Source of the DNA: Escherichia phage HK6
Direction: 5' to 3' (one strand)
Sequence record: PP724615.1
DNA length: 64,000 nucleotides
The first letter of the stretch is position 1. Every line of letters begins with the position of its first letter. Shown here piece by piece: positions 17,227 through 30,112 of the stretch. The notes beneath the pieces are model-generated. The model saw only the letters and a list, made by a program, of their open reading frames with translations, was not told the DNA's origin and did no database searches. A program made the translations under genes and the position numbers.

Positions 17227-17302
17227 TGGTAGTTAGTAGTGGATTTGAACCACTGTAGTCACTCCGTATGAAGGAGGTGCATAACCACTCTGCCAACTAA
17301 CT
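17227..17302 (-). tRNA. tRNA with CAT anticodon (Met-type)
   Basis: T-arm AGTGG-TTCAAAT-CCACT, 7-bp acceptor stem, encoded CCA; anticodon read by eye. Confidence 0.65.
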
Positions 17303-17398
17303 ATTATGTTTTACTAGACTAAGTAAGTATTCTTTATACTCTTTAGACCAATTAGCTTTTTTAAACTTTCCTGGACGCATAGTCTTAATTCCTAAATT

Positions 17399-17476
17399 TG
17401 GTACTCCGGGAGGGATTTAAACCCCCCGATCTCTCGGTTATCAGCCGAGTGCTTTAGATCGCTAAGCTACCGAAGC
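17399..17476 (-). tRNA. tRNA-Ile (GAT)
   Basis: Anticodon arm CTCGG-CTGATAA-CCGAG, acceptor GCTTCGG/CCGGAGT with G-U pairs. Confidence 0.65.
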
Positions 17477-17477
17477 A

Positions 17478-17705
17478 TTAACATTTAATTGCAGAACGTT
17501 TACCATTTCTAGGCGCACCTGGAAGTCGTGCACATTCCGCCATTTTTCTTTTTATTTTGTAGATATTTTCTTGTGTTTGTTCTTCAGGCTTAATACCTGA
17601 AACACTACACCACTGATTACCATCCCATGCAGTAATGATCATAACACCATTACTCATGATCTTTTCTGTGAAAGTAATCCTCATTATAGCAACTCGTCTA
17701 AGCAA
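17478..17705 (-). CDS. Hypothetical protein (75 aa)
   Basis: ORF track. Confidence 0.4.
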   Translation of the reverse strand: MLRRVAIMRITFTEKIMSNGVMIITAWDGNQWCSVSGIKPEEQTQENIYKIKRKMAECARLPGAPRNGKRSAIKC

Positions 17706-17977
17706 GAGGTATATTTAATTTTACCATCTTTATCTACTTTGATTTCGACTTCCGCTCGTGGTACTTGACGAACTACACCATGAATCATCTTATAGCGAAT
17801 GCCTTTAGCTGGTTCATGATCTTTTGGAAATACTTGCTTAACCGTTACTACCTTGAAACCCTCACGCGGTGTTAACACTACTACTTGATCACCTTCTTTG
17901 ATTTTCCAAGAGCTAGGAAATTCATAGGTATAGCGTTGACCACCAGTTTGGAACACAACAGAAAGATAACGTTTCAT
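17684..17977 (-). CDS. Hypothetical protein (97 aa)
   Basis: Promoter module upstream at about 17975-18040. Confidence 0.5.
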   Translation of the reverse strand: MKRYLSVVFQTGGQRYTYEFPSSWKIKEGDQVVVLTPREGFKVVTVKQVFPKDHEPAKGIRYKMIHGVVRQVPRAEVEIKVDKDGKIKYTSCLDELL

Positions 17978-18226
17978 TTGGTTTCCCTCTCATTAATTTA
18001 TATAAATATTATAACAAGAAATAAGAGAGAAAGCAAATGAATTTTTAATAAAGTTTAGTCACTTCATAAACTATACTACGAGATTCTTTATTACGTTCTA
18101 TTAAATTAGCATATGCTTTTTCAGCTTCATTTTTAGTATTAAAGTCTATAACGTGGGAGGTATTAGCTCTGTTTGATTGGCTATACCAGATAACTACTAG
18201 GAGTTTAAACATACTAGTCCTTAAAT

Positions 18227-18313
18227 TGGTGCTGGGCACAGGATTCGAACCTGCAATGGGATTACTCCTCCTGATTACAAATCAGGTGCATTCAACCATT
18301 CTGCCAACCCAGC
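18227..18313 (-). tRNA. tRNA, anticodon TGT by eye, with long variable arm (87 nt)
   Basis: Anticodon arm CCTGA-TTTGTAA-TCAGG; T-arm GCAGG-TTCGAAT-CCTGT; variable-arm hairpin; isotype uncertain. Confidence 0.6.
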
Positions 18314-18478
18314 AGAACCCGTTATTTCAACGGGATTTCTTTTTCAATAACAGGGGACTTATCAGTCATGACTGTCATTGCCATTTGTTGTAGAAATTCA
18401 AAGGTGAAGGCTACACGTTCTTCACCAATCTCTACTTCTACACGTTTCTTTTGTTTGTCGATCTTAACTTTTAGGTTA

Positions 18479-18730
18479 TCAGCCATTAGAGAGTACAGTA
18501 CTGGTAGTTGGCAATACTACAGATGAAGCAACAGTGTTTAAATGCTTTCTCCAGTCTAGGTTAAATTGTTTTCGAAACTCTTCATAAGGTTCTTCTGGAT
18601 AAAAGCTAAAACCTCCTTTCTCATCATTCAGGATAACAGAGCCGTCAGTTTGTTCGTATGCTCGGTATGTTTCTCCAATAACAATAACTCGTTTATCGGT
18701 ACTTTTATTACGAAACTCAAAAACGTGCAT
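18479..18730 (-). CDS. Hypothetical protein (83 aa)
   Basis: ORF track. Confidence 0.45.
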   Translation of the reverse strand: MHVFEFRNKSTDKRVIVIGETYRAYEQTDGSVILNDEKGGFSFYPEEPYEEFRKQFNLDWRKHLNTVASSVVLPTTSTVLSNG

Positions 18731-18746
18731 AATGTTTCCTTAAAGT

Positions 18747-18822
18747 TGGAGCGGCTAGAGGGAATCGAACCCTACTCAGCGAGGCTTGGAAGGCCTGCGA
18801 CACAACCCGTGTGCTTAACCGC
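18747..18822 (-). tRNA. tRNA-Gly (TCC)
   Basis: T-loop TTCGATT; anticodon loop CTTCCAA. Confidence 0.6.
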
Positions 18823-18830
18823 TTATTATT

Positions 18831-18906
18831 TGGCTGGAGAAGGAGGAATCGAACCTACCATTAACGGAGTCAAAGGCCGTTGTGCTAACCGTTACACTAC
18901 TCTCCA
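18831..18906 (-). tRNA. tRNA-Gln (TTG)
   Basis: Acceptor TGGAGAG/TTCTCCA; anticodon loop CTTTGAC; T-loop TTCGATT. Confidence 0.65.
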
Positions 18907-18912
18907 ATTATT

Positions 18913-18988
18913 TGGCTGGGATGCCACGGATCGAACGTGGAACCTTCGGAGTCAGAGGCCGACGATCTGCCAATTGATCTACATCCCA
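18913..18988 (-). tRNA. tRNA-Gln (CTG)
   Basis: Acceptor TGGGATG/CATCCCA; D-stem GATC/GATC; anticodon loop CTCTGAC; T-arm CCACG-TTCGATC-CGTGG. Confidence 0.7.
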
Positions 18989-18997
18989 AGAATGCTA

Positions 18998-19234
18998 TTA
19001 ACTAGATGCTGTTTCTACTGGCTGAGATACAGCCGGCTGTTCTAACGTATCTGGTGCTGATACGGAGAAAAGAGCTTGTAATGCTGCAATATCACGCTCG
19101 TAAGTATCAATACGAGTAGTAAGAGTATCTACCATTTGTTTATGGTAAGCTAAGTTATTCTGAGACTCATCTCGAAGAGTTTGCAGTTCTGCAAGACGTG
19201 TTAACATAATTTCACTAATTAAAGCATTACTCAT
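18998..19234 (-). CDS. Hypothetical coiled-coil protein (78 aa)
   Basis: ORF track. Confidence 0.4.
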   Translation of the reverse strand: MSNALISEIMLTRLAELQTLRDESQNNLAYHKQMVDTLTTRIDTYERDIAALQALFSVSAPDTLEQPAVSQPVETASS

Positions 19235-19424
19235 TTGTTTCTCCTAAGTTTTCCTGTTCTTCTAAACGTTTGCCTTCATGATCTACTCGAATAACTCCGC
19301 ATCCTTCGCAAATCACAACTGCACCATAACCTTCTTTGACCTCAGCTTCTGTAATCAAACCAGAAAGATCACCAGTATCTCTGCCCCACATATCAATGGA
19401 GCATTGTTTGCAGAAATCAGCCAT
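19227..19424 (-). CDS. Small zinc-ribbon-like protein (65 aa)
   Basis: CKQCS and CEGCG Cys pairs. Confidence 0.4.
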   Translation of the reverse strand: MADFCKQCSIDMWGRDTGDLSGLITEAEVKEGYGAVVICEGCGVIRVDHEGKRLEEQENLGETNE

Positions 19425-19451
19425 ATTTTATTTCCTATTTAAGTTAATTTG

Positions 19452-19528
19452 GGGTGGCTAGTGGAATTCGAATCCACATAGGCCTGATTCACAATCAGGA
19501 TCATTAACCAATTATGATATAGCCACAA
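19452..19528 (-). tRNA. tRNA-His (GTG)
   Basis: Anticodon arm CCTGA-TTGTGAA-TCAGG; T-arm GTGGA-TTCGAAT-TCCAC; acceptor GTGGCTA/TAGCCAC. Confidence 0.75.
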
Positions 19529-19892
19529 TTGAAAACTCGCAGGGTTAGCGAAACCTTCCTCAATTAGCATGTTCTAGAATACTAATCAAGTTATCTCCTA
19601 TTGCACGCAGCTCAAGACGAGTACGAATTTTCAATTGTGGCGGCTCTCAGAAACTCTTCTACTCTAGTCTTAGCAGCTTACTCCCGAACGCATGTCGGGG
19701 AAGTCTTACCAAGAGCATCAAATAGCACCGTTACACTTTGAGCCATAGGTGTATCAAGAAGCAGAAGGACTTGAACCTTCACGAGATAGACCATTTATCT
19801 CAGCCGCTTTATGAGGTATGTTGCTGGGAGTGGATGTTCCCCATAAACCTTTTAGGCAGCCCCGTCTACCGATTCCGGCATACTTCAAGATT

Positions 19893-19986
19893 TGGAGGTA
19901 GGTAAGGGGATCGAACCCTTACACCGTATCACTACGATCAACCGATTTCAAGTCGGAGTCCAGCGCCAGCCGTTGGATTGACCTAC
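19893..19986 (-). tRNA. tRNA-Ser (TGA), long variable arm
   Basis: T-arm AAGGG-TTCGATC-CCCTT; acceptor GGTAGGT/ACCTACC; anticodon loop CTTGAAA. Confidence 0.65.
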
Positions 19987-19998
19987 CGTATAAATTGT

Positions 19999-20093
19999 TT
20001 GGCGGAAAAGATGGGAGTTGAACCCATAAGGCGGTATTGCTACCACTCAACCGATTTCCAATCGGGTTTAGTCACCAGTCTATTTGCTTTTCC
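19999..20093 (-). tRNA. tRNA-Ser (GGA), long variable arm
   Basis: T-arm ATGGG-TTCAACT-CCCAT; acceptor GGAAAAG/CTTTTCC; anticodon loop TTGGAAA; 5' end overlaps the stop of the HNH gene by about 14 nt. Confidence 0.6.
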
Positions 20094-20664
20094 GTTGTTC
20101 TGTTAATACTTTTGGGCTTAATCCGGTTAGTTTAGTATATCGTCTACGTAAAGTGGACTCTGATACTTCTAGATCTTTAGCTGCCTTAACCCACCCCATT
20201 AATAAAACCTTTTCAGTTATGTCTTCTAAGGACAATTCTGGTTTTATTAACTTTCCTGTAGGTTTTGGCTTACAATTTGTACATGTTACTGATCTCTGAA
20301 GCATTAGATTTCCACATAAGGGGCAAGGTACTCTACTATCAGACCATCCATTATCTTTATTAGTTTTCTTCTGATGTTCTATTTTTGACAAAACTTGAAG
20401 ATTATCTTTAGATAGATTCAGCCTATCTCTATCCTTGTGATCTACTTCTAATTCAGGGTCAAATAGATTATATAAGTCCCCAAATACATGAGAAATAATT
20501 CGGTGTATAAGTACCGAAGTTTGCTTACCATTTATCTGTAATTTTACAGCAGGGTATCCATCAACTATATATCTTGATAAAATTTTATTAGTAAATGTAG
20601 ATAACACATCCCCTGTTTCATTTACTAAATACCCTGGTGCATCTTTTATTGGTACAAACTGCAT
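20080..20664 (-). CDS. HNH homing endonuclease (194 aa)
   Basis: N-terminal IKDAPGYLVNETGDV (NUMOD4-like), HNH core VDHKDRDRLNLSKDNLQVLSKIEHQKK, C-terminal HTH-like tail. Confidence 0.75.
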   Translation of the reverse strand: MQFVPIKDAPGYLVNETGDVLSTFTNKILSRYIVDGYPAVKLQINGKQTSVLIHRIISHVFGDLYNLFDPELEVDHKDRDRLNLSKDNLQVLSKIEHQKKTNKDNGWSDSRVPCPLCGNLMLQRSVTCTNCKPKPTGKLIKPELSLEDITEKVLLMGWVKAAKDLEVSESTLRRRYTKLTGLSPKVLTEQRKSK

Positions 20665-20680
20665 ACATTACCCTATAAGT

Positions 20681-20765
20681 TGGTGGGGCTAGGGAGACTC
20701 GAACTCCCACGCATTTAAGCTACGGAATCTAAGGCCGTATTGTCTACCAGTTCCAGCATAGCCCC
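20681..20765 (-). tRNA. tRNA-Leu (TAG), long variable arm
   Basis: T-arm GGGAG-TTCGAGT-CTCCC; acceptor GGGGCTA/TAGCCCC; anticodon loop CTTAGAT. Confidence 0.65.
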
Positions 20766-20770
20766 AAATT

Positions 20771-20844
20771 TGGTGGAGAAAGAGGGAGTTGAACCCTCGT
20801 CTTCTGCGTGCAAAGCAGATGTTCTACCATTAAACTATATCCCC
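20771..20844 (-). tRNA. tRNA-Ala (TGC)
   Basis: T-arm GAGGG-TTCAACT-CCCTC; anticodon arm TCTGC-TTTGCAC-GCAGA. Confidence 0.65.
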
Positions 20845-21129
20845 AAATTCTTTAGTTTACTAAGGCTATTAGCTCGGCGTAACTACAGCACCTTCGCTTC
20901 GAGCGGAAGGAACCGCGTCATCTCGCAAACCCGATACACTATTCAGTTGCCGCTGAATCTAGTGGACTAATCTAGAACTTCTCCCGAATCGTAGGGATCG
21001 TGCTTTTTGGCAGCCAGTCCTAGGTCGAGCTAATACCTTAGTGAACTATGATGAGGATTTCTCCTCATCAATTTATATTGATATTATAACAAGAAATTAA
21101 GCATCAAGCAACTGCATTTTTCTTGAAAT

Positions 21130-21209
21130 TGGTAGATCGCCTGGGACTCGAACCCAGAACCTTCCGATTAAAAGTCGGATGCTACTAAACCTATTGAGCT
21201 AGCGATCTA
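21130..21209 (-). tRNA. tRNA-Lys (TTT)
   Basis: Acceptor AGATCGC/GCGATCT; anticodon arm TCCGA-CTTTTAA-TCGGA; T-arm CTGGG-TTCGAGT-CCCAG. Confidence 0.7.
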
Positions 21210-21397
21210 TTAGTAACCATTATACACTTCTTTAATAGAGTGGACTTTTAAGTAAGGGTGATTAGTACTAAACTCTACCATTACTTCATCCCAATTTTTA
21301 CCGTAATGAGCAAGTAAGGATTTTGATGTATTCTTACCTGAACGTTTGTCACTTACTACTAATCGAAATACTTTCATTTCGAAATCCCCTATTAAAA

Positions 21398-21474
21398 TGG
21401 AAGCGGGTGCAGGAATCGAACCTACCTCTTTCTAGCTTATGAGACTAGTGATCTCTACCAGAGATCTAACCCGC
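21398..21474 (-). tRNA. tRNA with CAT anticodon (Met/fMet/Ile2-type)
   Basis: Anticodon arm CTAGT-CTCATAA-GCTAG; T-loop TTCGATT; acceptor pairing imperfect, ends approximate. Confidence 0.5.
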
Positions 21475-21481
21475 AATTGTT

Positions 21482-21557
21482 TGGTCAGTGCGGCAGGACT
21501 CGAACCTGCGACCCGAAGCATCCAAGGCTCCCACGCTACCAACTGCGCTACGCACTG
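21482..21557 (-). tRNA. tRNA-Pro (TGG)
   Basis: Acceptor CAGTGCG/CGCACTG; anticodon loop CTTGGAT; T-arm GCAGG-TTCGAGT-CCTGC. Confidence 0.75.
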
Positions 21558-21566
21558 TTAATTCTT

Positions 21567-21764
21567 TTATTGTGGAGGAATATTAATAATTCGTCCATCT
21601 ACACAATAAACGGTACTAGGAATCGTACTATATATGTAGAAATTCTTTATATTACTCTCTCCGCCACAGAAATTTTTAGCAAATTCATACTCTTTATTAA
21701 TGGTTGAGTCAAATTTAAAACAACCAGTAAGTAGGAATACAGATAGTAATAAAACTTTCTTCAT
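21567..21764 (-). CDS. Small lipoprotein (65 aa)
   Basis: Signal peptide with lipobox LLTGC; promoter module upstream. Confidence 0.5.
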   Translation of the reverse strand: MKKVLLLSVFLLTGCFKFDSTINKEYEFAKNFCGGESNIKNFYIYSTIPSTVYCVDGRIINIPPQ

Positions 21765-22591: not shown

Positions 22592-22667
22592 TGGTACACC
22601 CACTAGGACTTGAACCTAGAACCCCCCGCTTAAGAGGCGGTAGCTCTAACCATTGAGCTATGGATGT
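22592..22667 (-). tRNA. tRNA-Lys (CTT) by eye
   Basis: Acceptor ACATCCA/TGGGTGT; anticodon loop CTCTTAA; T-arm CTAGG-TTCAAGT-CCTAG. Confidence 0.55.
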
Positions 22668-22843: not shown

Positions 22844-22920
22844 TTGGCGCGACCGATGGGATTCGAACCCACATTCTCTCCCGTGACAGGGGAGTACCAT
22901 TACCAAACCAGCCCCGGTCG
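22844..22920 (-). tRNA. tRNA-Asp (GTC)
   Basis: Acceptor GCGACCG/CGGTCGC; anticodon arm CTCCC-CTGTCAC-GGGAG; T-loop TTCGAAT. Confidence 0.7.
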
Positions 22921-22930
22921 CATAATTCAT

Positions 22931-23116: not shown

Positions 23117-23230
23117 GCTTGTTTCCTCAGTTATTAATGAAAATGGTATCTGTGGCTGAATTCGATGTCAGCAATGATAGCTGGTTGGCTACCGGTTTAC
23201 TTAACTCTACACAGAATTTGGCGGGCCGTG

Positions 23231-23313
23231 TAGGATTCGAACCTACGTTGTCTTTCGACACGGATTAACAATCCGCCGCCAAACCGCTTGGCTAACGACC
23301 CTAAATTTATATT
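23231..23313 (-). tRNA. tRNA, anticodon GTT (Asn-type) with unusually long variable arm (83 nt)
   Basis: Acceptor GGGTCGT/ACGGCCC; D-stem GCCA/TGGC; anticodon arm GCGGA-TTGTTAA-TCCGT; 13-nt variable arm; T-arm GTAGG-TTCGAAT-CCTAC. Confidence 0.6.
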
Positions 23314-23453: not shown

Positions 23454-23529
23454 TGGACGACCGCATGAGATTTGAACTCACATAAAAAGGATTTGCAATC
23501 CTTCGCCTAAGCCATTCAGCCAACGGTCG
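23454..23529 (-). tRNA. tRNA-Cys (GCA)
   Basis: Anticodon arm AAGGA-TTGCAAA-TCCTT; T-loop TTCAAAT; acceptor CGACCGT/GCGGTCG. Confidence 0.65.
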
Positions 23530-23888: not shown

Positions 23889-23963
23889 TGGTGCACCCTG
23901 TTCGTATCGAACGAACCTCTCAAGCTCTTCAGGCAAGCGCTAATCCATCTCAGCTAAAGGTGC
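23889..23963 (-). tRNA. tRNA-like, possible Phe (GAA), weak anticodon stem
   Basis: Good acceptor (GCACCTT/AGGGTGC) and T-arm (GTTCG-TTCGATA-CGAAC) but the anticodon stem has two mismatches; may be degenerate. Confidence 0.4.
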
Positions 23964-23969: not shown

Positions 23970-24040
23970 TGGCAGGGGTAAAGGTATTCGAAACCTTTTC
24001 ATGGGTTTTGGAGGCCCATTTGCAACCTATGCGTACCCCA
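23970..24040 (-). tRNA. tRNA-Trp (CCA) candidate, short D region
   Basis: T-arm AAGGT-TTCGAAT-ACCTT; anticodon loop CTCCAAA; only about 71 nt, 5' end approximate. Confidence 0.45.
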
Positions 24041-24049: not shown

Positions 24050-24124
24050 TGGCACACCCAACGAGGATCGAACTCGTGTTCCCACTGTGAAAGAGTAGTG
24101 TCCTAACCGCTAGACGATAGGTGC
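24050..24124 (-). tRNA. tRNA-Glu (TTC)
   Basis: D-stem GTCT/GGAC; anticodon arm CTACT-CTTTCAC-AGTGG; T-arm ACGAG-TTCGATC-CTCGT. Confidence 0.7.
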
Positions 24125-24131
24125 ATTAAAT

Positions 24132-24219
24132 TGGTGGGCGTTAATGGAGTCGAACCACTCGAGTCGCAATGACCAGGGATTTACAATCCCCTCCGCTACC
24201 ACTTACGGAATAAACGCCC
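24132..24219 (-). tRNA. tRNA-Tyr (GTA), long variable arm
   Basis: Anticodon arm GGGGA-TTGTAAA-TCCCT; D-arm TTCC..GG.AG resembles bacterial tRNA-Tyr; acceptor GGGCGTT/AACGCCC. Confidence 0.7.
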
Positions 24220-25164: not shown

Positions 25165-25241
25165 TTGGTAGGGGTGGTGGGATTCGAACCCACAAAACCT
25201 GAATTTTAAGTCCAGTACCTATGCCAATTCGATTACACCCC
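25165..25241 (-). tRNA. tRNA with TAA anticodon (Leu-type) but short variable arm
   Basis: Acceptor GGGGGTG/CACCCCT; anticodon arm CTGGA-CTTAAAA-TTCAG; T-arm GTGGG-TTCGAAT-CCCAC; 77 nt. Confidence 0.55.
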
Positions 25242-25343
25242 CATGTAATCAGTTTATTAGTTGATACATATTATAGCCTAGTGAAAATCCTACTACTAGT
25301 CCCACAAACCAACCAATATAGTAATCTTTTAGTTTCACAGGTA

Positions 25344-25529: not shown

Positions 25530-25538
25530 ATAGTCTCC

Positions 25539-25727: not shown

Positions 25728-25745
25728 TAATTGTCCTTATTTAAT

Positions 25746-25823
25746 TTGGTGGCTCCCCGAGGATTCGAACCTACGTACCTACCGGTTATGAGCCGGGTGC
25801 TCATACCATATGAGCTTGAGAAC
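25746..25823 (-). tRNA. tRNA with CAT anticodon (Met/fMet/Ile2-type)
   Basis: Acceptor GGTTCTC/GGGAGCC; D-arm GCTCA-TATGGTA-TGAGC; anticodon loop CTCATAA; T-loop TTCGAAT. Confidence 0.6.
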
Positions 25824-25829
25824 CAAAAT

Positions 25830-25918
25830 CTGGCGGAAGAAGTGGGAATCGAACCCACAAGGCTATATTTCAAACCGACAGATTAGCAATCTGCTGCAAT
25901 ACCGTTATGCTATTCTTC
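25830..25918 (-). tRNA. tRNA-Ser (GCT), long variable arm
   Basis: Acceptor GGAAGAA/TTCTTCC; anticodon arm GCAGA-TTGCTAA-TCTGT; T-arm GTGGG-TTCGATT-CCCAC. Confidence 0.7.
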
Positions 25919-25940
25919 CGAATTTATAAGATATATTATA

Positions 25941-26510
25941 TTAGAAATTTAGCTTCATAGCAAGAAAATTTTTCAAGTTTTCGGTAGACATCTCATCCAC
26001 ATCTACAGGAGAAACAAATCCATTTAATTTTCTAGCAAATTTTTCACCAGCAGGATCGTTGTCCCCGACAGCTACTAATTTAAAAGGTAATAATTTCAAT
26101 TGCTTTAATAACGCTTTTCCTGGAGAAGAACCCAACATTGCCAGGGCTGGGTAACCAGCATTATGTAACGCAACTGCCTTAAATACAGATTCAGCGATCA
26201 ATACTACTTTTTCATCTCCATTGAGAGTTTCTAGTCCCCATACACACTGGGTAGTAGAATAAGTAAAGTATTTAGCTTCAAAGGGGCACTTACCATGACC
26301 TTTTGGAGCAGAAGGATTGTAAGTTTGATAGCCCCTCAACATCCCAGAGAAGTCATACAACGGGACAGTTAGCCATCCTTCCGGACTTAACCAGCAATGA
26401 TATTTATCTGTATCAAATCCTCTAGATAAGAGGTGCTGTGTTAGCTCATCAACATTCATATTTGGTTCCTCTCTCAAATTTATAGATATATTATACAGAG
26501 AATTTAGCAT
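25941..26510 (-). CDS. Toprim-domain protein (189 aa)
   Basis: VAVGDNDPAGEKFARKL resembles the Toprim DxD acidic motif; no zinc-binding primase domain. Confidence 0.5.
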   Translation of the reverse strand: MLNSLYNISINLREEPNMNVDELTQHLLSRGFDTDKYHCWLSPEGWLTVPLYDFSGMLRGYQTYNPSAPKGHGKCPFEAKYFTYSTTQCVWGLETLNGDEKVVLIAESVFKAVALHNAGYPALAMLGSSPGKALLKQLKLLPFKLVAVGDNDPAGEKFARKLNGFVSPVDVDEMSTENLKNFLAMKLNF

Positions 26511-26634
26511 TCAAGCAATCAAATTTTTTAACTTTTTAGAGGAGAATCATAGGGCACTTAAGGGTAGCAGATAAGTGGTGAGGACCAAAATTTGTGACCC
26601 CACTAAAAATCCGGGGGCAATTTTTAAAGATCCC

Positions 26635-26663
26635 TTGACATTTTCGCTGGGGTAGTGTAAAGT
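26635..26663 (+). promoter_or_regulatory. sigma70-like promoter (TTGACA, 17 bp, TAAAGT) for the plus-strand operon
   Basis: Perfect -35 hexamer, weaker -10; shares the 13-mer TTGACATTTTCGC with the promoter at 55633. Confidence 0.5.
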
Positions 26664-26725
26664 ATATGTTATGGATGAGTGATCAAAGAGACACACATTT
26701 TCTATATACTAGGAGGTGTCAAAAA

Positions 26726-27718
26726 ATGACAGAAGAAGTAGCTAAGAGTCCTGAGACCGTCGCTAGCGTTGCAGCAGAACTGCACCGTCACGAGGAATCA
26801 GATAAGAAAAAGTGGGAGAAGGTCAGAGCCTACGAAGAAAAACATCGTGAACACGATGAAGATGATAAAGAAGATGACGATGATGAGCATTGTCATAAAT
26901 ATGGAAAACATAAAATGCAAGAACCAGTAAACGTATTTACTAGTGGCTTCCCTGGCCTACTGGGTGGTTACCCAGCAAACGCAGGTGCTTTCGGTGGTGA
27001 AGGTATGGGACTATTCGGAGCTATCCTAATCGGTGCTCTATTAACAGGCGGATTCGGTGGATTCGGTGGATTCGGTGGACGTGGTATAGTTGGTGATGGT
27101 ACCGCAGTTGATGCAGTACTTCAGAACCAAGATACCGCTAGTATTCTAGCAGCTATTAACACTACTCGTACAGAAGCTAATCAGGGTACTGGAGCTGTTT
27201 TAAGCGCAGTTAACAATGGTTTTAGCCAGACATCCCAAAACCAGAGCCGTGATACTCAGTCTGTACTAACTACGATCTATGGTACGGGTGCTAATCTGTC
27301 TAATCAAATCTGCCAGGAAACTCGCAACGTTATTCAGGGTCAGTTCGATCTTTCTCGCCAGATTGATCAATCTTTCGCAGCTAACCAGATAGCTCGTGCA
27401 CAAGATAAGTTTGATTCTGCACAGATCGCTTTCCAGCAGACTTTACAAACTAATAACCAGTTTGCCGCTGTTCAGGCTCAGATGTGTGCTAACCAGAACT
27501 CTCTGGAACGTCAGATTGCTGAATGTTGCTGTGAACTTCAGACTGCGATCGCTGGTGTAACTACTGCGCGTATCCAGGATGAGTTAGATGCGTGTCGCCT
27601 ACGTGAAGCAATCGCTGCGGGTAGCGGTGCTAACGGTCAGGTAATTAATCAAATCGCTTTAAGTCTTGGTACTATCACTCAGACTCTGGCTGGTCTGCAG
27701 GCTAAACTGCCGGCTTAA
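26726..27718 (+). CDS. Low-complexity membrane protein, acidic N-terminus, GGFGGFGGFGG segment, Q/T/N-rich C-terminus (330 aa)
   Basis: Start at the ATG 8 nt after AGGAGG (track ORF begins 26666); hydrophobic glycine-zipper GMGLFGAILIGALLTGGFGGFGGFGGRG; no family recognised. Confidence 0.65.
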   Translation: MTEEVAKSPETVASVAAELHRHEESDKKKWEKVRAYEEKHREHDEDDKEDDDDEHCHKYGKHKMQEPVNVFTSGFPGLLGGYPANAGAFGGEGMGLFGAILIGALLTGGFGGFGGFGGRGIVGDGTAVDAVLQNQDTASILAAINTTRTEANQGTGAVLSAVNNGFSQTSQNQSRDTQSVLTTIYGTGANLSNQICQETRNVIQGQFDLSRQIDQSFAANQIARAQDKFDSAQIAFQQTLQTNNQFAAVQAQMCANQNSLERQIAECCCELQTAIAGVTTARIQDELDACRLREAIAAGSGANGQVINQIALSLGTITQTLAGLQAKLPA

Positions 27719-27739
27719 TATTAAGGGGAGGAGCCCATT

Positions 27740-28156
27740 ATGAGTAAATATGGTTTTGTAAATAACGGACTTAATCAAAGTATGGGCTCCCAGCAGCCCA
27801 TTCCGGGTCTGGATAACCCCTACTTACAACAGTTGCAACAGCGTTTAGCAGAAGCGCAACAGATGCAGCAACAACTCCAGCAAAACCCTGGAAGTGTAAG
27901 TCCTATGCAAATGATGCAGCAAATGAGCGGGCAGTCGCAAATGCCTCAACAAATGCAGCAACAGATTCCGCAGCAGCAAGTTCAGCAACAAACCCAACAA
28001 CCGCAGGTTTCTGCGGAAGGACAGGCAGTACTAGCCCTTTTCGAAGACTTCGCAAAGACAGAGGATGGAAAACAGCTTGTATCACTTATGGGTAAGTTTA
28101 ATAGCTTCTGCCAAAGCCAAGTTGCAAAAGCTCAAAATGGTGGTAATAACTCCTAA
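27740..28156 (+). CDS. Gln-rich low-complexity protein (138 aa)
   Basis: RBS GGGGAGGAG; about 40 percent Q in the central region. Confidence 0.6.
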   Translation: MSKYGFVNNGLNQSMGSQQPIPGLDNPYLQQLQQRLAEAQQMQQQLQQNPGSVSPMQMMQQMSGQSQMPQQMQQQIPQQQVQQQTQQPQVSAEGQAVLALFEDFAKTEDGKQLVSLMGKFNSFCQSQVAKAQNGGNNS

Positions 28157-28165
28157 GGAGGAATT

Positions 28166-28360
28166 ATGTGTTGCAGAAAATCTGTTTCGTGCTGCCCAAT
28201 GCCTGTAGCACGTTGTTGCTCTCCAGCAATGTTTACGCAAATACCGGCGTTCAATCCGTTTGCCTTTAAGCCTACTCTTATCCTGCCCCCTAGAGTAGAT
28301 TTTCAGTCAAGATTGGCCTCCCGTATGGGTGGTTGCTGTAACAAGAGTATATGGTTCTAA
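28166..28360 (+). CDS. Small Cys-doublet protein (64 aa, four CC pairs)
   Basis: RBS AAGGAGG; MCCRKSVSCCPMPVARCC...GGCCNKSIWF. Confidence 0.55.
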   Translation: MCCRKSVSCCPMPVARCCSPAMFTQIPAFNPFAFKPTLILPPRVDFQSRLASRMGGCCNKSIWF

Positions 28361-28375
28361 GGAACCAAACAATAA

Positions 28376-28406
28376 AGCCCCTAAGTCTTTCGACTAGGGG
28401 CTTTTC
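28376..28406 (+). terminator. Rho-independent terminator ending the plus-strand operon
   Basis: GCCCCTAG..CTAGGGGC stem followed by TTTTCTTTT. Confidence 0.75.
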
Positions 28407-28426
28407 TTTTATCTTAAATACAGAAA

Positions 28427-28455
28427 AGCCCGCGCTTTCGGAGAAAACGCGGGCT
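28427..28455 (-). terminator. Rho-independent terminator downstream of SPFH gene
   Basis: AGCCCGCG..CGCGGGCT stem followed on the minus strand by TTTTCTGTATTT. Confidence 0.7.
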
Positions 28456-28479
28456 TGGTTCGAAGATTACGTGTAACTA

Positions 28480-29427
28480 TTACTTGTTACGCATATCCAT
28501 AATCATTTGACCATCATAGCCAGTGCCAACTACAGTCTGAGGTACACCACCTTGATACTTCTGAGCACGAATCATTTCAACTTCCAGTTGCTTCCAGCGA
28601 ATCATCTCAGGAGTAATGGTACGTTGCAATGCGGCGTTAGCTTCAGCTTCTTTCTTAGCTGCGTACAGTTTAGCATCTGCGTCACGTTCATTAGCAATAG
28701 CTTGGTTGTTGCGAGCCTCACGATCTGCTTCTGCTTGTTTAACTTTTTGCTGTGCTTCCTGTTCAACGCGAGCGAGTTCAGCTTTCGCAGCATTAACTTG
28801 TTCTTCACGAACTTTGGTATTCTGTACCTGTTCCATGATTACCGGTGGCAAAGTAATATCCTGAAGAAACACCTGCTTAACTGTGTAACCATATGGGCGT
28901 GCATACTCTTCAACTTCCTGTTGAATTGCAGTTTGCAATTGAGCCTGAATTTTAGCATCAAATAAATCTTGTGCTTTAGGTACAGACTTACCAAACTCAC
29001 GAATAGTAGACAGTAATTTTTCAGTTACATATTTGTCTAACGCTTGATCCTGAGTACCTGCGTTAATACGGTTAATCGGTGCCTTAGAACCATCAAACTG
29101 CAACATAACAGTCAAGTCAACAGTGGATTTAAACTTGTCCTGGCTAGGAACCTGAAGTTTATCTAATTTTACAGCAATATCTTTTGTACTAAAAGTATCA
29201 AAAGATGCAAACGGGTTTACAAGATGGAAACCAGGCAATACTGGATTAGGGTCTACTTTACCCAGGAATGTTTGGGTTTTAACCGTACCATCAGAAACAA
29301 TAGTATATGAATTAAAAGCTAGGATTAAACCTGCTAAACCAACTACAGCACCAATACCCCAACGTTTAATAGTACGAATTACTTTCTGCTCAGAAGTCAG
29401 TTCTTTCATATTTTTAGTATTAAACAT
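28480..29427 (-). CDS. SPFH/band-7 (stomatin/prohibitin-like) membrane protein (315 aa)
   Basis: N-terminal TM, SPFH-like core, long Ala/Gln/Glu-rich coiled coil. Confidence 0.7.
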   Translation of the reverse strand: MFNTKNMKELTSEQKVIRTIKRWGIGAVVGLAGLILAFNSYTIVSDGTVKTQTFLGKVDPNPVLPGFHLVNPFASFDTFSTKDIAVKLDKLQVPSQDKFKSTVDLTVMLQFDGSKAPINRINAGTQDQALDKYVTEKLLSTIREFGKSVPKAQDLFDAKIQAQLQTAIQQEVEEYARPYGYTVKQVFLQDITLPPVIMEQVQNTKVREEQVNAAKAELARVEQEAQQKVKQAEADREARNNQAIANERDADAKLYAAKKEAEANAALQRTITPEMIRWKQLEVEMIRAQKYQGGVPQTVVGTGYDGQMIMDMRNK

Positions 29428-29461
29428 ATATTTCCTTTGTTTTAGTTACAGTTAATAAAAT

Positions 29462-29536
29462 TGGCCGAGGTGACAGGATTCGAACCTGCATAAAGGAATT
29501 TAGAAGACTCCTGCCTCTCCCTTAGACTACACCCCG
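29462..29536 (-). tRNA. tRNA-Arg (TCT)
   Basis: Acceptor CGGGGTG/CACCTCG; anticodon arm GGAGT-CTTCTAA-ATTCC; T-arm GCAGG-TTCGAAT-CCTGT. Confidence 0.65.
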
Positions 29537-30040
29537 TTTAAGTATTTTTAAGAACTCTCGTAAAAACTCTTAAAAATACAGACGATACCGGGAGAGTCAT
29601 AAGTCTCACTCATTAAGTATTTCAAGACAAAATACGGTAACGTCTATTATTTTCCAGTTTAAGTCAGGGTGACTTAGTGGTTATGTCCTGCGGTATATTG
29701 AGGACTCGGTTAGGCTTGGGGTCATGACTTCCCGCCTTTTGCTGCTACTCAACAGGAATTATCGCGAATTACCTGTGCTATTGTGCACCATTAGTGACAT
29801 CTCTCATGTCAGCATTTCCCACTTTGTGGATAGCTTGAAAAACTACTCCGATATGGAGAAAGAACTTCACTATCCTAGAATACCTTCTAAAGTTCTTCTT
29901 TAGCCTGGACATAGTTAAATCGTAATAAAACTATTCAGCAGACTGGTTGGTTAGTCTGGAACCAACTACCGCGTGGTTTAGGCAGTGCGCAACTAACCTC
30001 GGAAGCTTTTACGTTAAAAGCACCAGTTATCCAGTTCTTA

Positions 30041-30112
30041 CCGACCGTAGGATTCGAACCTACATCTTCCACCAGTTACGGCTTGATAATACCAATTATA
30101 ATAGGACGGCAG
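30041..30112 (-). ncRNA. tRNA-like element without a clean anticodon stem
   Basis: Canonical T-arm GTAGG-TTCGAAT-CCTAC and partial acceptor pairing; no 5+7+5 anticodon arm found. Confidence 0.3.

What the first reader, a model, noticed from the sequence alone, without database searches (positions are those of the whole stretch)
17227..30112. Large tRNA cluster with three CAT-anticodon genes and several atypical tRNAs
I find about 26 minus-strand tRNA genes by hand. Three have CAT anticodons (17227, 21398, 25746), consistent with initiator, elongator Met and lysidine-Ile2. Several look atypical: long variable arms combined with anticodons TGT (18227) and GTT (23231), a TAA anticodon in a short-arm tRNA (25165), and two with weak stems (23889, 23970). 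These may be real structural oddities or errors in my manual folding.
Basis: seen in the sequence. Interest (0 to 1): 0.5.

Follow-up and report, generated by a model that had tools for sequence, protein, structure and literature searches.

The report
T5-type tRNA cluster, odd-shaped tRNAs
This is the well-known transfer-RNA gene cluster of a T5-like phage, but three of its tRNAs have a real, conserved, rule-breaking shape (an extra hairpin on Thr and Asn tRNAs, a missing arm on a Leu tRNA) that turns out to be common in phages and may help them escape bacterial tRNA-cutting defences.

Summary
The window is a Tequintavirus (97.6% identical to phage Lindwurm). At 17227-30112 on the minus strand it carries 26 CCA-encoding tRNA genes plus one tRNA-like element. 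The three CAU genes match T5's annotated elongator Met, fMet and Ile2. Software reproduces the flagged oddities instead of removing them.

- Thr(UGU) is 87 nt and Asn(GUU) is 83 nt. Each has a variable-arm hairpin of 3 bp capped by a GNRA tetraloop.
- Leu(UAA) is 77 nt with a 5-nt variable loop, so it is class I.
- Phe has two U·U pairs in its anticodon stem. Trp has a degenerate D arm.

These are not one-off quirks. Long-arm Thr and Asn tRNAs and armless Leu tRNAs occur in hundreds of GenBank phages and in very diverse viral contigs, with compensatory changes in the extra stem. Long-arm Thr(UGU) is also native to a few bacterial lineages.

Thr(UGU), Asn(GUU) and Lys(UUU) are the published targets of PARIS AriB. 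A 1-nt variant of this Thr tRNA (from Bas33) counters the P2 OLD tRNase in published work.

The cluster itself is already known. The structural class switch appears undiscussed in the literature I could search. Whether the extra arm causes nuclease escape is untested; my one broader test of it was negative.

The parts
17227..17302 (-). tRNA-Met(CAU), elongator
   Evidence: ARAGORN; Rfam 52.5 bits. Differs by 1 nt from T5t01 'tRNA-Met'.
17399..17476 (-). tRNA-Ile(GAU)
   Evidence: Orthologue of T5t02.
18227..18313 (-). tRNA-Thr(UGU), 87 nt, with a variable-arm hairpin GGA-GUAA-UCC; positions 36-41 read UAAUCA as in E. coli
   Evidence: ARAGORN drawing; Rfam 58.9 bits; the MFE fold contains the hairpin. 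About 100 GenBank phages carry this allele. Unrelated in sequence to T5's 75-nt Thr.
18747..18822 (-). tRNA-Gly(UCC)
   Evidence: Found only by relaxed ARAGORN. Identical to T5t04.
18831..18906 (-). tRNA-Gln(UUG)
18913..18988 (-). tRNA-Gln(CUG)
19450..19526 (-). tRNA-His(GUG)
19528..19889 (-). Homologues of T5 stable RNAs RNAIII, RNAI and RNA1
   Evidence: blastn against T5 misc_RNA features gives 99%, 92% and 86% identity.
19893..19987 (-). tRNA-Ser(UGA), 95 nt
   Evidence: Relaxed ARAGORN plus the Rfam Sec-model hit at 19897-19987. The 5' end was corrected by reading the sequence.
20000..20093 (-). tRNA-Ser(GGA)
   Evidence: Orthologue of T5t09.
20080..20664 (-). HNH homing-endonuclease ORF that overlaps the 5' end of tRNA-Ser(GGA)
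   Evidence: ORF list. Annotated as HNH endonuclease TflI in Lindwurm and as hegC in T5.
20681..20765 (-). tRNA-Leu(UAG), 85 nt, class II
   Evidence: Identical to T5t10. Many relatives carry a 77-nt class-I allele at this position instead.
20771..20844 (-). tRNA-Ala(UGC)
21130..21208 (-). tRNA-Lys(UUU), 79 nt; positions 36-41 read UAAUCG
   Evidence: A different allele from T5's PARIS-resistant Lys, which reads UAAACC.
21398..21475 (-). tRNA-fMet(CAU), initiator
   Evidence: Differs by 1 nt from T5t14 'initiator tRNA fMet'. Has U1·U72 and A11:U24.
21482..21557 (-). tRNA-Pro(UGG)
22592..22667 (-). tRNA-Lys(CUU)
   Evidence: Absent from Lindwurm and T5; present in Bas32 and Bas33.
22845..22921 (-). 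tRNA-Asp(GUC)
23219..23301 (-). tRNA-Asn(GUU), 83 nt, with a variable-arm hairpin GUC-GAAA-GAC; the anticodon stem matches the E. coli tRNA-Asn sequence I supplied from memory (UAAUCC at 36-41)
   Evidence: ARAGORN; Rfam 58.4 bits. The MFE fold is a five-arm cloverleaf with z = -3.12. Alignment A1 places the insertion in the variable loop. All three pairs of the extra helix covary.
23454..23529 (-). tRNA-Cys(GCA)
23889..23963 (-). tRNA-Phe(GAA) with two U·U pairs in the anticodon stem
   Evidence: Rfam 42.4 bits. Anticodon arm identical to T5 tRNA-Phe.
23970..24040 (-). tRNA-Trp(CCA), 71 nt, with a degenerate D arm
   Evidence: Rfam 23.1 bits, below the cut-off. Differs by 1 nt from T5t20 'tRNA-Trp'. 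Most relatives carry a canonical 77-nt allele.
24050..24124 (-). tRNA-Glu(UUC)
24132..24219 (-). tRNA-Tyr(GUA)
25166..25242 (-). tRNA-Leu(UAA), 77 nt, class I: 5-nt variable loop GUUUU, A73, A14, A15:U48, 3-bp D stem
   Evidence: ARAGORN; Rfam 57.4 bits. At least 99% identical in 291 GenBank phage records. Identity positions read.
25747..25824 (-). tRNA-Ile2(CAU), presumed lysidine tRNA
   Evidence: Rfam 40.2 bits; relaxed ARAGORN. Differs by 3 nt from T5t23 'tRNAI2(CAU)'.
25831..25919 (-). tRNA-Ser(GCU)
29462..29536 (-). tRNA-Arg(UCU)
29537..30166 (-). Homologue of T5 stable RNA 'RNAX'; it contains a tRNA-like element without CCA at 30039-30112
   Evidence: blastn against T5 rnaX gives 91-98% identity. 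The tRNA-like fold comes from ARAGORN at 80% threshold and Rfam at E=1.1. The element is conserved in 24 loci.

Best explanation
The region is the tRNA gene cluster of a T5-like phage. It holds 26 CCA-encoding tRNA genes on the minus strand, interleaved with small ORFs, an HNH homing endonuclease and the T5-type stable RNAs.

**What the cluster does.** It gives the phage its own tRNA pool, which serves two purposes. (i) It covers the codons that the AT-rich phage uses far more than E. coli: AGA, AUA, CUA, ACA, UUA and GGA. (ii) It replaces host tRNAs that defence nucleases destroy. The published targets are Lys(UUU), Thr(UGU) and Asn(GUU) for PARIS AriB; Thr(UGU), Gly(UCC), fMet and Pro(UGG) for P2 OLD; Tyr for retron-Eco7; and Lys for PrrC.

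**What the 'atypical' tRNAs are.** They are genuine, selected structural variants. Thr(UGU) and Asn(GUU) carry an extra variable-arm hairpin of 3 bp capped by a GNRA tetraloop. Leu(UAA) has lost the long variable arm while keeping the leucine identity elements A73, A14, A15:U48 and G18G19. All three keep the determinants their synthetases need, so they should decode normally.

**Inferred, not shown.** The changed core shape may be part of what makes these tRNAs poor substrates for host tRNases that read the D-loop, variable-region and anticodon-stem face. In this phage the Thr and Asn genes keep the E. coli sequence at the AriB cleavage site, whereas T5's alleles have mutated it.
For: **Identity of the cluster.** It is 97.6% identical to phage Lindwurm over 13.2 kb, and 99 phage records cover at least 80% of the query. 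It is syntenic with the T5 annotation, including the named CAU tRNAs and stable RNAs.

**Codon match.** Phage/host codon ratios are AGA 7.5, AUA 4.6, CUA 4.1, ACA 2.5, UUA 2.4 and GGA 2.3. Each of these codons has a cognate phage tRNA.

**Anti-defence role (published).**
- AriB cleaves E. coli Lys(UUU), Thr(UGU) and Asn(GUU) between positions 40 and 41, and the three T5 versions together neutralise PARIS (PMC12409363).
- Plasmid-borne Thr(UGU) of Bas33 gives strong counter-defence against the OLD tRNase, and E. coli's own Thr(UGU) gives none (bioRxiv 10.64898/2026.07.10.737580). Bas33's Thr(UGU) is the 87-nt long-arm allele, 1 nt different from the window's.
- Bas33 lacks Lys(UUU) and carries long-arm Thr and Asn. 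It is rescued from PARIS by T5 tRNA-Lys alone.

**The odd shapes are real.**
- The extra helix in Asn covaries: GUC/GAC, AUCC/GGAU, GUCA/UGAC and GUUC/GAAC. All 3 pairs change on both sides and 100% of cells are paired.
- In 71 distinct viral long-arm Thr tRNAs, 62 have a stem of at least 3 bp (shuffled mean 35.7) and 27 have a GNRA tetraloop (shuffled mean 0.5). There are 44 distinct stems.
- Of 114 class-I tRNA(UAA) sequences, 113 have A73, and the 15:48 pair covaries as A:U or G:C.

**Identity elements.** For E. coli LeuRS the variable arm is dispensable, while A73, A15-U48 and G18G19 are required (review PMC9976931). AsnRS needs the anticodon plus G73. ThrRS needs acceptor-stem pairs plus the anticodon. 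All of these are present in the window genes.
Against: **The arm as escape determinant is untested.**
- No experiment isolates the variable arm as the cause of nuclease resistance. AriB is known to read other distal features as well, such as U16.
- The trade-off seen in T5-likes (long arm with the site kept; short arm with the site mutated) rests on only two allele lineages per tRNA.
- It does not generalise. Among environmental viral Thr(UGU) tRNAs, U39C40 occurs in 14/47 long-arm and 42/103 short-arm sequences.
- Long-arm Thr(UGU) is also the apparent native tRNA in Spirosoma, Eremiobacterota and Kiritimatiellia, so it need not be a phage counter-measure.
- Short-arm phage Thr alleles (T4, Bas32) counter OLD just as well.

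**Charging of the armless Leu tRNA is uncertain.** E. coli LeuRS failed to charge the class-I tRNA-Leu(CAA) of Streptomyces (PMC6614811).

**The fMet gene is not fully canonical.** It lacks the three G:C pairs in the anticodon stem that are typical of bacterial initiators, a feature I cite from memory (sequence read).
Confidence: 0.75

Rival explanations
1. The extra arm on Thr and Asn, and the missing arm on Leu, are tolerated lineage-specific variants with no role in defence evasion. On this view the tRNAs act only as ordinary codon-supplementing tRNAs, inherited or exchanged among phages and some bacteria.
For: - Long-arm Thr(UGU) looks like the native gene in Spirosoma spp. and in Eremiobacterota, where it sits beside Tyr-Gly-Thr(GGU).
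- Arm length shows no association with the sequence at 39-40 in the wider viral sample.
- Codon enrichment (ACA 2.5-fold, UUA 2.4-fold) is enough to explain why the genes are kept.
- Short-arm phage Thr alleles counter OLD equally well.
Against: - The insertion is restricted to particular isoacceptors. Thr(UGU) and Asn(GUU) have it; Thr(CGU) 0/14, Thr(GGU) 0/13, Arg(UCU) 0/71 and Asp 0/61 do not.
- The two tRNAs affected in this phage are two of the three AriB targets.
- The hairpin and its GNRA cap are kept across 44 different stems, which argues for selection on the structure.
- AAC is not enriched in the phage (ratio 0.8), so codon supply does not explain the Asn gene.
Confidence: 0.35
2. 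The atypical genes are decaying pseudo-tRNAs, or non-translational RNAs such as decoys that bind and inhibit the nucleases, rather than working adaptors.
For: - Trp scores below the Rfam threshold, and Phe has two U·U pairs.
- T5 itself flags Gln2 as a pseudogene.
- Bas34 shows that chimeric dead tRNAs do arise in this region.
- Belukhina et al. raise competition with host tRNAs as a possibility.
Against: - The three odd tRNAs score 57-59 bits on the Rfam tRNA model.
- They keep their synthetase determinants.
- They are nearly invariant in hundreds of phages, and every stem covaries.
- The OLD study found that phage tRNA-Thr stays intact while host tRNA is still degraded, which indicates supplementation and not inhibition.
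Confidence: 0.07
3. The shape change switches amino-acid identity. The long-arm Asn tRNA has G1-C72, G2-C71, G73 and an extra arm, so SerRS might serylate it. The armless UAA tRNA might not be charged with leucine. Either case would cause recoding or mistranslation.
For: - E. coli serine identity rests on the variable arm, G73 and G1-C72/G2-C71, and the window Asn tRNA has all four.
- E. coli LeuRS did not charge a Streptomyces class-I tRNA-Leu.
Against: - The arm is only 3-4 bp.
- The Asn D arm is class-I-like, with a 4-bp stem and a 7-nt loop. SerRS reads the characteristic tertiary structure of tRNA-Ser.
- G73 and the GUU anticodon are exactly the AsnRS determinants.
- A73, A14 and A15:U48 are near-universal in the armless UAA family, as expected if LeuRS selects them.
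Confidence: 0.04
4. The oddities are artefacts of manual folding or of gene-finder error.
For: - Default ARAGORN missed four genes.
- Relaxed ARAGORN misplaced the 5' end of Ser(UGA).
Against: Three independent methods (ARAGORN, the Rfam covariance model, ViennaRNA MFE) and comparative covariation all give the same structures.
Confidence: 0.01

Closest known systems
tRNA gene region of bacteriophage T5 (NC_005859; T5t01-T5t25 plus stable RNAs RNAI, III, IV, 1, 2, 2H, 3 and X)
   Same: The gene order and strand are the same. Fourteen tRNAs are identical or nearly so: Met, Ile1, Gly, His, Ser2, Leu1, fMet, Asp, Cys, Phe, Trp, Ile2, Ser3 and Arg. The HNH endonuclease overlapping Ser(GGA) and all eight stable RNAs are also shared.
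   Different: Thr, Asn, Lys(UUU), Gln1, Gln2, Ser1, Ala, Pro and Glu are replaced by unrelated alleles, and Tyr by a divergent one. The window gains Leu(UAA) and Lys(CUU) and lacks Val(UAC) and hegA. T5's Thr (75 nt) and Asn (78 nt) have normal variable loops.
T5 tRNA-Lys(UUU), Thr(UGU) and Asn(GUU) as suppressors of PARIS (Burman 2024, PMC11464382; Belukhina 2025, PMC12409363), and phage Thr(UGU) tRNAs as suppressors of P2 OLD (bioRxiv 10.64898/2026.07.10.737580)
   Same: The isoacceptors are the same. The Bas33 Thr(UGU) tested against OLD is the window's allele with 1 nt changed.
   Different: T5's versions escape AriB through substitutions at positions 39-41 and U16C. The window's Thr and Asn keep UAAUCA and UAAUCC and differ instead by an inserted variable-arm hairpin. 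Neither the PARIS Nature paper nor the OLD preprint uses the word 'variable'.
Bacterial class II tRNAs (Leu, Ser, Tyr)
   Same: The Thr and Asn genes have a stem-loop in the variable region of 13-14 nt. Thr also has the 3-bp D stem and large D loop typical of class II.
   Different: The anticodons and identity elements are Thr and Asn, not Leu, Ser or Tyr. The arm is a minimal 3-4-bp stem with a GNRA cap. Asn keeps a class-I D arm. Conversely, the window's Leu(UAA) lacks the arm.
Class-I tRNA-Leu of animal mitochondria and of Streptomyces coelicolor tRNA-Leu(CAA) (PMC6614811)
   Same: A short variable loop combined with A73 and A14.
   Different: The window's tRNA is phage-encoded and must be charged by an enterobacterial LeuRS, an enzyme reported not to charge the Streptomyces class-I tRNA. 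It also keeps the E. coli-type A15:U48 pair and D-loop layout.
V-arm tRNAs with non-canonical anticodons: nematode nev-tRNAs (PMC3333845) and allo-tRNAs (PMC5389517)
   Same: A long variable arm combined with an anticodon outside Leu, Ser or Tyr.
   Different: By their published descriptions, nev-tRNAs decode an alternative code for leucine and allo-tRNAs have 8/4 or 9/3 acceptor branches (abstracts listed). Here the 7/5 architecture is standard and the cognate Thr and Asn determinants are intact.

Membership tests
T5-like (Tequintavirus) tRNA gene cluster | Nucleotide identity and synteny with the T5-type tRNA region | tested here: met
   97.6% identity to Lindwurm over 97% of 13.2 kb. Gene-by-gene correspondence with NC_005859.
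T5-like (Tequintavirus) tRNA gene cluster | Interspersed stable RNAs and HNH homing endonucleases; CCA encoded in the genes | tested here: met
   All eight T5 stable RNAs have homologues. An HNH ORF lies at 20080-20664. All 26 genes end in CCA.
Canonical class I elongator tRNA (for Thr and Asn) | Variable loop of 4-5 nt | tested here: not met
   The variable regions are 14 nt (Thr) and 13 nt (Asn), each with a hairpin.
Canonical class I elongator tRNA (for Thr and Asn) | 7-bp acceptor stem and 5-bp T stem, 7-nt anticodon loop, cognate identity elements | tested here: met
   ARAGORN structures. Thr has G1-C72, C2-G71 and the UGU anticodon. Asn has the GUU anticodon and G73.
Bacterial class II tRNA | Belongs to the Leu, Ser or Tyr isoacceptors | tested here: not met
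   The anticodons are UGU and GUU.
Bacterial tRNA-Leu | Long variable arm | tested here: not met
   The variable loop is 5 nt, GUUUU.
Bacterial tRNA-Leu | E. coli LeuRS determinants: A73, A14, A15:U48 and G18G19 in a class-II-type D loop | tested here: met
   Read directly from the sequence. Determinants as listed in PMC9976931.
Bacterial tRNA-Leu | Leucylation by the host LeuRS | not testable with these tools
   Needs a charging assay. The one published precedent with E. coli LeuRS and a class-I tRNA-Leu was negative.
Bacterial initiator tRNA-fMet (gene 21398-21475) | Mismatch at 1-72 and an R11:Y24 pair | tested here: met
   U1·U72 and A11:U24. Features as listed.
Bacterial initiator tRNA-fMet (gene 21398-21475) | Three consecutive G:C pairs at 29-31/39-41 (feature recalled from established knowledge) | tested here: not met
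   The stem is C-G, U-A, A-U, G-C, U·G. T5 nevertheless annotates the orthologue as the initiator.
Lysidine tRNA-Ile2 (gene 25747-25824) | CAU anticodon with IleRS determinants A73, U12-A23 and C29-G41 | tested here: met
   Sequence read. Determinants as listed.
Lysidine tRNA-Ile2 (gene 25747-25824) | C4-G69 acceptor pair | tested here: not met
   The gene has U4-A69.
Lysidine tRNA-Ile2 (gene 25747-25824) | k2C34 modification by TilS and AUA decoding | not testable with these tools
   Support is indirect only: AUA is 4.6-fold enriched, T5 labels the orthologue tRNAI2, and there is no blastn similarity to E. coli genomes.
Nuclease-resistant anti-defence phage tRNAs (PARIS AriB / P2 OLD escape) | Same anticodon as a host tRNA that the nuclease targets | tested here: met
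   Lys(UUU), Thr(UGU) and Asn(GUU) for AriB. Thr(UGU), Gly(UCC), fMet and Pro(UGG) for OLD.
Nuclease-resistant anti-defence phage tRNAs (PARIS AriB / P2 OLD escape) | Substitutions at the AriB recognition and cleavage site U36AAUC|A41 | tested here: not met
   Thr reads UAAUCA and Asn reads UAAUCC, both as in the host. Lys reads UAAUCG.
Nuclease-resistant anti-defence phage tRNAs (PARIS AriB / P2 OLD escape) | Demonstrated resistance or rescue | not testable with these tools
   Published only for the 1-nt variant, Bas33 Thr(UGU), against OLD.

The most novel reading that the evidence does not exclude
Phages may systematically switch the structural class of particular tRNAs as a shape-based escape from tRNA-targeting immune nucleases. 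They add a small GNRA-capped variable-arm hairpin to Thr(UGU), Asn(GUU) and, less often, Cys, Lys(UUU) and Ile(UAU). They delete the long arm from Leu tRNAs. On this reading the window's Thr and Asn tRNAs resist AriB- and OLD-type Toprim tRNases because of the extra arm, even though the cleavage-site sequence is intact. The rule that 'class II = Leu, Ser, Tyr' would then be routinely broken in the virosphere for immune-evasion reasons.
Probability: 0.25. Interest if true: 0.8.

Novelty: new variant of a known kind. Interest (0 to 1): 0.55.

Why it matters
The cluster as such is textbook T5 biology. The value lies in the three oddly shaped tRNAs.

**They break a standard rule.** The accepted bacterial rule is that only Leu, Ser and Tyr tRNAs carry a long variable arm. 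It is restated in the 2020 review of non-canonical tRNAs, which does not mention phages at all. These tRNAs break it in both directions, and they are frequent. In viral loci not selected for the tRNA in question:
- 3/37 Thr(UGU) and 11/58 Asn(GUU) carry the extra hairpin.
- 6/36 Leu(UAA), 23/44 Leu(UAG) and 12/25 Leu(CAA) lack the arm.

**They connect to current defence biology.** Thr(UGU) and Asn(GUU) are two of the three tRNAs cut by PARIS. A 1-nt variant of this Thr tRNA is already known to beat the OLD tRNase. So the hairpin gives a concrete, cheap experiment on how immune tRNases recognise tRNA shape, and on why phages carry tRNAs at all.

**They bear on annotation and engineering.** Gene finders mis-score or mis-assign such tRNAs. 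The variants also show that ThrRS, AsnRS and LeuRS tolerate a class switch.

Tried and rejected
1. **Site/arm trade-off.** I tested whether a long arm substitutes for mutating the AriB site. The association is perfect in T5-likes but absent in unbiased viral scans: U39C40 in 14/47 long-arm versus 42/103 short-arm Thr tRNAs. I kept the idea only as an untested hypothesis.
2. **Bas34 as a natural test of the long-arm Asn allele.** Bas34 is SelmaRatti (MZ501103). Its 'Asn' is a deletion chimera, with an Asn 5' part and an fMet-like 3' end that breaks the acceptor stem. It is uninformative. I had first taken IrisVonRoten for Bas34; it is Bas32.
3. **Phage exclusivity of long-arm Thr(UGU).** Rejected. 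The genome scan found it in Spirosoma isolates and in Eremiobacterota, Kiritimatiellia and Acetobacteraceae MAGs.
4. **Similarity of the Ile2 candidate to E. coli tRNAs.** blastn found no match, so the assignment rests on T5's annotation, the identity positions and AUA usage.
5. **ARAGORN on the Trp gene and the Asn-Cys spacer.** Even at 80% threshold ARAGORN finds neither a tRNA at the Trp gene nor anything in the 152-nt Asn-Cys spacer.
6. **Intron reading of the extra nucleotides.** Rejected. Alignment with E. coli and T5 Asn places the insertion between positions 44 and 48, not in the anticodon loop.
7. **Literature.** Several searches of the accessible library found no paper describing long-arm Thr or Asn tRNAs, or armless Leu tRNAs, in phages. 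The library excludes most subscription journals, including the 1980s T5 tRNA sequencing papers, so absence is not proof.

Full report
**What the region is.** The window has about 39% G+C with a skew consistent with leftward transcription across the region. Megablast of 17000-30200 against GenBank phages hits 619 records. The best is Escherichia phage Lindwurm (Demerecviridae, Tequintavirus), at 97.6% identity over 97% of the query. The curated T5 reference (NC_005859) annotates the same region in detail: 25 tRNA features (T5t01-T5t25), eight 'stable RNAs', promoters and HNH endonucleases.

**Checking the observation.** Default ARAGORN finds 22 minus-strand tRNA genes. The Rfam tRNA model finds 21 at its gathering score, including one that ARAGORN missed, the CAU gene at 25750-25824. 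Relaxed ARAGORN gives 25, adding Gly(UCC), Ser(UGA) and Ile2(CAU).

The candidate at 23970-24040 scores only 23.1 bits against a threshold of 29. It has a CCA anticodon, a G73-CCA end and a degenerate D arm, and it differs by one base from the gene T5 annotates as tRNA-Trp. That makes 26 genes, all encoding CCA.

A 27th tRNA-like element without CCA lies at 30039-30112. It sits inside the homologue of T5 'RNAX'. The only slip is Asn, given as 23231 where the gene is 23219-23301. I corrected one software error: Ser(UGA) runs 19893-19987 with a perfect acceptor stem.

**The three CAU genes.** They are the orthologues of T5's elongator Met, initiator fMet and Ile2(CAU), with 1, 1 and 3 differences.
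- The fMet gene has the 1-72 mismatch (U·U) and the A11:U24 pair that mark bacterial initiators. It lacks the three G:C pairs in the anticodon stem.
- The Ile2 gene has A73, U12-A23 and C29-G41, but U4-A69 where C4-G69 is expected.
- AUA is 4.6-fold more frequent in 75 phage ORFs than in 34 MG1655 genes.

Lysidine itself cannot be tested here.

**The atypical tRNAs are real.**
- Thr(UGU) is 87 nt. Its variable region AG-GGA-GUAA-UCC-CAU forms a 3-bp stem with a GNRA tetraloop.
- Asn(GUU) is 83 nt, with GUC-GAAA-GAC-AAC.
- Leu(UAA) is 77 nt, with a 5-nt variable loop, a 3-bp D stem and an 11-nt D loop.

All three score 57-59 bits on the Rfam tRNA model. ViennaRNA independently draws both hairpins, and the Asn MFE is a clean five-arm cloverleaf with z = -3.12. 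Alignment with E. coli tRNA-Asn (sequence supplied from memory) and T5 tRNA-Asn places the extra 8-13 nt in the variable loop. Phe has two U·U pairs in its anticodon stem, and T5's tRNA-Phe has the same anticodon arm.

**Allele replacement within T5-likes.** Fourteen window tRNAs are essentially T5's. Thr, Asn, Lys(UUU), both Gln, Ser1, Ala, Pro and Glu are unrelated sequences at the same positions, and Tyr is a divergent allele. In 22 IMG/VR T5-like loci plus GenBank examples, each of these tRNAs exists as alternative alleles:
- Thr is either 75 nt with a short loop or 87 nt with the long arm.
- Asn is 78, 83 or 86 nt.
- Leu(UAG) is either a class-I 77-nt gene or a class-II gene of 83-87 nt.
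- Trp is either 71 nt with a degenerate D arm or 77 nt and canonical.

T5 has hegA where this phage has Leu(UAA).

**The oddities are families, not accidents.**

*In GenBank phages.*
- The 87-nt Thr occurs in about 100 T5-like records. Aeromonas T4-like phage PX29 has an 85-nt homologue whose arm is CC-GAAA-GG.
- The long-arm Asn matches 522 records at 80% coverage or more. They include Klebsiella T4-like phages (GUCA-GAAA-UGAC; GUC-UUAG-GAC), Proteus phage 2 (GUUC-GAAA-GAAC) and Bas33 (AUCC-GCAA-GGAU).
- On a 10-sequence alignment, all three pairs of the extra helix change on both sides and every cell is paired. The whole cloverleaf is 96.6% paired against 77.4% in shuffles.

- The Thr scan gave 90 long-arm Thr(UGU) hits from very diverse phages. 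Of the 71 distinct sequences analysed, 62 have a stem of at least 3 bp (shuffled mean 35.7, maximum 44) and 27 have a GNRA tetraloop (shuffled mean 0.5). There are 44 different stems.
- The Asn scan gave 28 long-arm Asn(GUU). With three added from GenBank that makes 30 distinct sequences, of which 14 have a GNRA loop (shuffled mean 0.3).
- The Leu scan gave 116 class-I tRNA(UAA) among 119 hits. Of the 114 analysed, 113 have A73, and the 15:48 pair covaries as A:U (71) or G:C (29).

*Frequency by anticodon.* I ran ARAGORN over 392 viral loci, giving 2251 tRNAs. I then counted only loci that were not selected for the tRNA in question.
- Long variable regions: Thr(UGU) 3/37, Asn(GUU) 11/58, Cys 5/35, Lys(UUU) 3/53, Ile(UAU) 16/45.
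- Short loops in Leu: Leu(UAA) 6/36, Leu(UAG) 23/44, Leu(CAA) 12/25.
- No long arm over all loci: Thr(CGU) 0/14, Thr(GGU) 0/13, Arg(UCU) 0/71, Asp 0/61.

*In bacteria.* The same Thr pattern in bacterial genomes gave 32 tRNAs among 120 hits. They come from five Spirosoma isolates or MAGs (one sequence in four and a 1-nt variant in the fifth, as a lone gene in the two loci checked), Eremiobacterota (beside Tyr-Gly-Thr(GGU)), Kiritimatiellia and Acetobacteraceae. The long-arm Thr(UGU) is therefore not exclusive to phages, and it is evidently a working tRNA.

**What the cluster does.** Two functions are supported.

*Codon supply.* The codons most enriched in the phage relative to E. coli are AGA 7.5-fold, AUA 4.6, CUA 4.1, ACA 2.5, UUA 2.4, GGA 2.3 and AAG 2.0. 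Each has a cognate phage tRNA.

*Counter-defence.*
- PARIS AriB cleaves E. coli Lys(UUU), Thr(UGU) and, more weakly, Asn(GUU) between positions 40 and 41 at U36AAUC|A41. T5's three versions together neutralise PARIS and carry substitutions at positions 39-41 plus U16C (PMC12409363).
- P2 OLD depletes Thr(UGU), Gly(UCC), fMet, Val(UAC) and Pro(UGG).
- Plasmid-borne Thr(UGU) from T4, Bas32, Bas33 and HK446 restores plating on OLD+ cells. T5's does so only partly, and E. coli's not at all.
- T5-like tRNA-Tyr defeats retron-Eco7, and SP15 tRNA-Lys defeats PrrC170.

I fetched Bas33 (HildyBeyeler). Its Thr(UGU) is the 87-nt long-arm allele, one base different from the window's. Its Asn is an 86-nt long-arm allele, and it lacks Lys(UUU). 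This matches the published report that Bas33 is rescued from PARIS by T5 tRNA-Lys alone.

**How the odd shapes might work (inference).** The window's Thr and Asn keep the host sequence at the AriB site: UAAUCA and UAAUCC. The Asn anticodon stem also matches the E. coli tRNA-Asn sequence I supplied from memory. T5's short-loop alleles have mutated that site.

AriB is modelled as a dimer bridging the 3' strand of the anticodon stem and D-loop residues U16-U17. It needs features distal to the site. OLD cuts after nucleotides 27-29. A hairpin emerging between positions 44 and 48 lies between those surfaces, so steric or shape-based exclusion is plausible. I put this step at about 0.25-0.3.

The reasons for caution:
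- The association rests on two allele lineages per tRNA.
- It vanishes in unbiased scans, where U39C40 occurs in 14/47 long-arm and 42/103 short-arm Thr tRNAs.
- Short-arm phage alleles also beat OLD.
- Some bacteria use the long-arm form natively.

**The armless Leu(UAA).** The E. coli LeuRS determinants are all present: A73, A14, A15:U48 and G18G19. The review literature says the arm is dispensable for E. coli LeuRS. However, E. coli LeuRS failed to charge the class-I tRNA-Leu(CAA) of Streptomyces. Charging therefore remains to be shown. Near-invariance in 291 records and the 2.4-fold enrichment of UUA argue that the gene is functional.

**Comparison with what is known, and novelty.** The cluster is already known, and these genes are annotated as tRNA-Thr, tRNA-Asn and tRNA-Leu in hundreds of records. 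What I could not find described is their architecture.
- The word 'variable' does not occur in the PARIS Nature paper or in the OLD preprint.
- The 2020 review of non-canonical tRNAs has no mention of phages and restates that class II means Ser, Leu and Tyr.
- The Streptomyces paper calls class-I tRNA-Leu almost unknown in prokaryotes and does not mention phages.
- Targeted searches returned nothing relevant.

The library omits most subscription journals, so prior description cannot be excluded. I rate the finding as a new variant of a known kind: tRNAs with a switched structural class, inside a known system.

**Verdict.** The cluster is ordinary T5 biology. The three odd tRNAs are genuine and lead to a broader, testable pattern. 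Interest is 0.55.

Noticed in passing
L019 (IMG/VR T5-like contig IMGVR_UViG_2974654585_000001), the tRNA between Glu and Phe: This phage carries a CUA-anticodon (amber-suppressor) version of the 77-nt Trp tRNA. It differs by one base (CCA to CTA) from the allele found in 15 other T5-like loci.
   Followed up: no
Environmental viral loci such as L353, L433, L435, L463, L470: 16 of 45 distinct phage tRNA-Ile(UAU) have a 21-27-nt variable region. In the examples listed, its hairpin loop carries a recurring CYAGAUURG-like motif. This is a different kind of extra arm from the GNRA-capped one.
   Followed up: no
window 23302-23453 (minus strand): A 152-nt non-coding spacer lies between tRNA-Asn and tRNA-Cys. 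A spacer of the same length separates Asn and Cys in T5_ev212, Bas32 and Bas33; in Lindwurm the gap is 8 nt. It folds better than shuffles (z = -2.35). No Rfam or tRNA match was found.
   Followed up: partly
window 30039-30112, inside the RNAX homologue 29537-30166: A tRNA-like element without CCA, with a perfect T arm and a weak anticodon arm, is conserved in 24 T5-like loci. L017 and Bas33 carry a two-sided change in its acceptor-like stem (GTC...GGT becomes GAT...GAT). Its function is unknown, as is that of T5 RNAX.
   Followed up: partly
L525 (Bas34 SelmaRatti MZ501103), locus 14605-14684 and 16525-16612: Two annotated tRNAs are deletion chimeras. One joins the 5' part of the long-arm Asn to an fMet-like 3' end. 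The other joins a His 5' part to a Gly 3' part. This may explain why Bas34's own Asn did not help against PARIS in the published assays.
   Followed up: partly
L039 (Bas32) 16302-16379; also L016, L018, L019, L022: A 78-nt Lys(UUU) allele has C at position 33, where U33 is almost universal. The anticodon loop reads CCUUUAA.
   Followed up: no
window 22592-22827: tRNA-Lys(CUU) plus a 52-aa ORF are present here, and also in Bas32 and Bas33. They are absent from Lindwurm and T5. AAG is 2.0-fold enriched in the phage.
   Followed up: partly
window, whole cluster: There is no Val(UAC) tRNA, although T5 has one and GUA is twice as frequent in the phage as in E. coli. Val(UAC) is one of the tRNAs depleted by P2 OLD.
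   Followed up: partly
window 26666-28360 (plus strand): Three ORFs on the opposite strand (350, 138 and 64 aa) interrupt the minus-strand cluster, and the GC and AT skew flip locally. By position they correspond to T5.077-T5.079, which in T5 are followed by a bidirectional terminator.
   Followed up: no
L171, L194, L224, L231, L245 (Spirosoma); L174, L177 and others (Eremiobacterota); L205, L208, L217 (Kiritimatiellia): A long-arm, GNRA-capped tRNA-Thr(UGU) appears to be the native chromosomal gene in several bacterial lineages.
   Followed up: partly
L041 (Klebsiella phage Roth04) 1-235: This T4-like Klebsiella phage carries a compact Tyr - Lys(UUU) - long-arm Asn(GUU) trio. Those are the isoacceptors hit by retron-Eco7, by PrrC and PARIS, and by PARIS respectively.
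   Followed up: no
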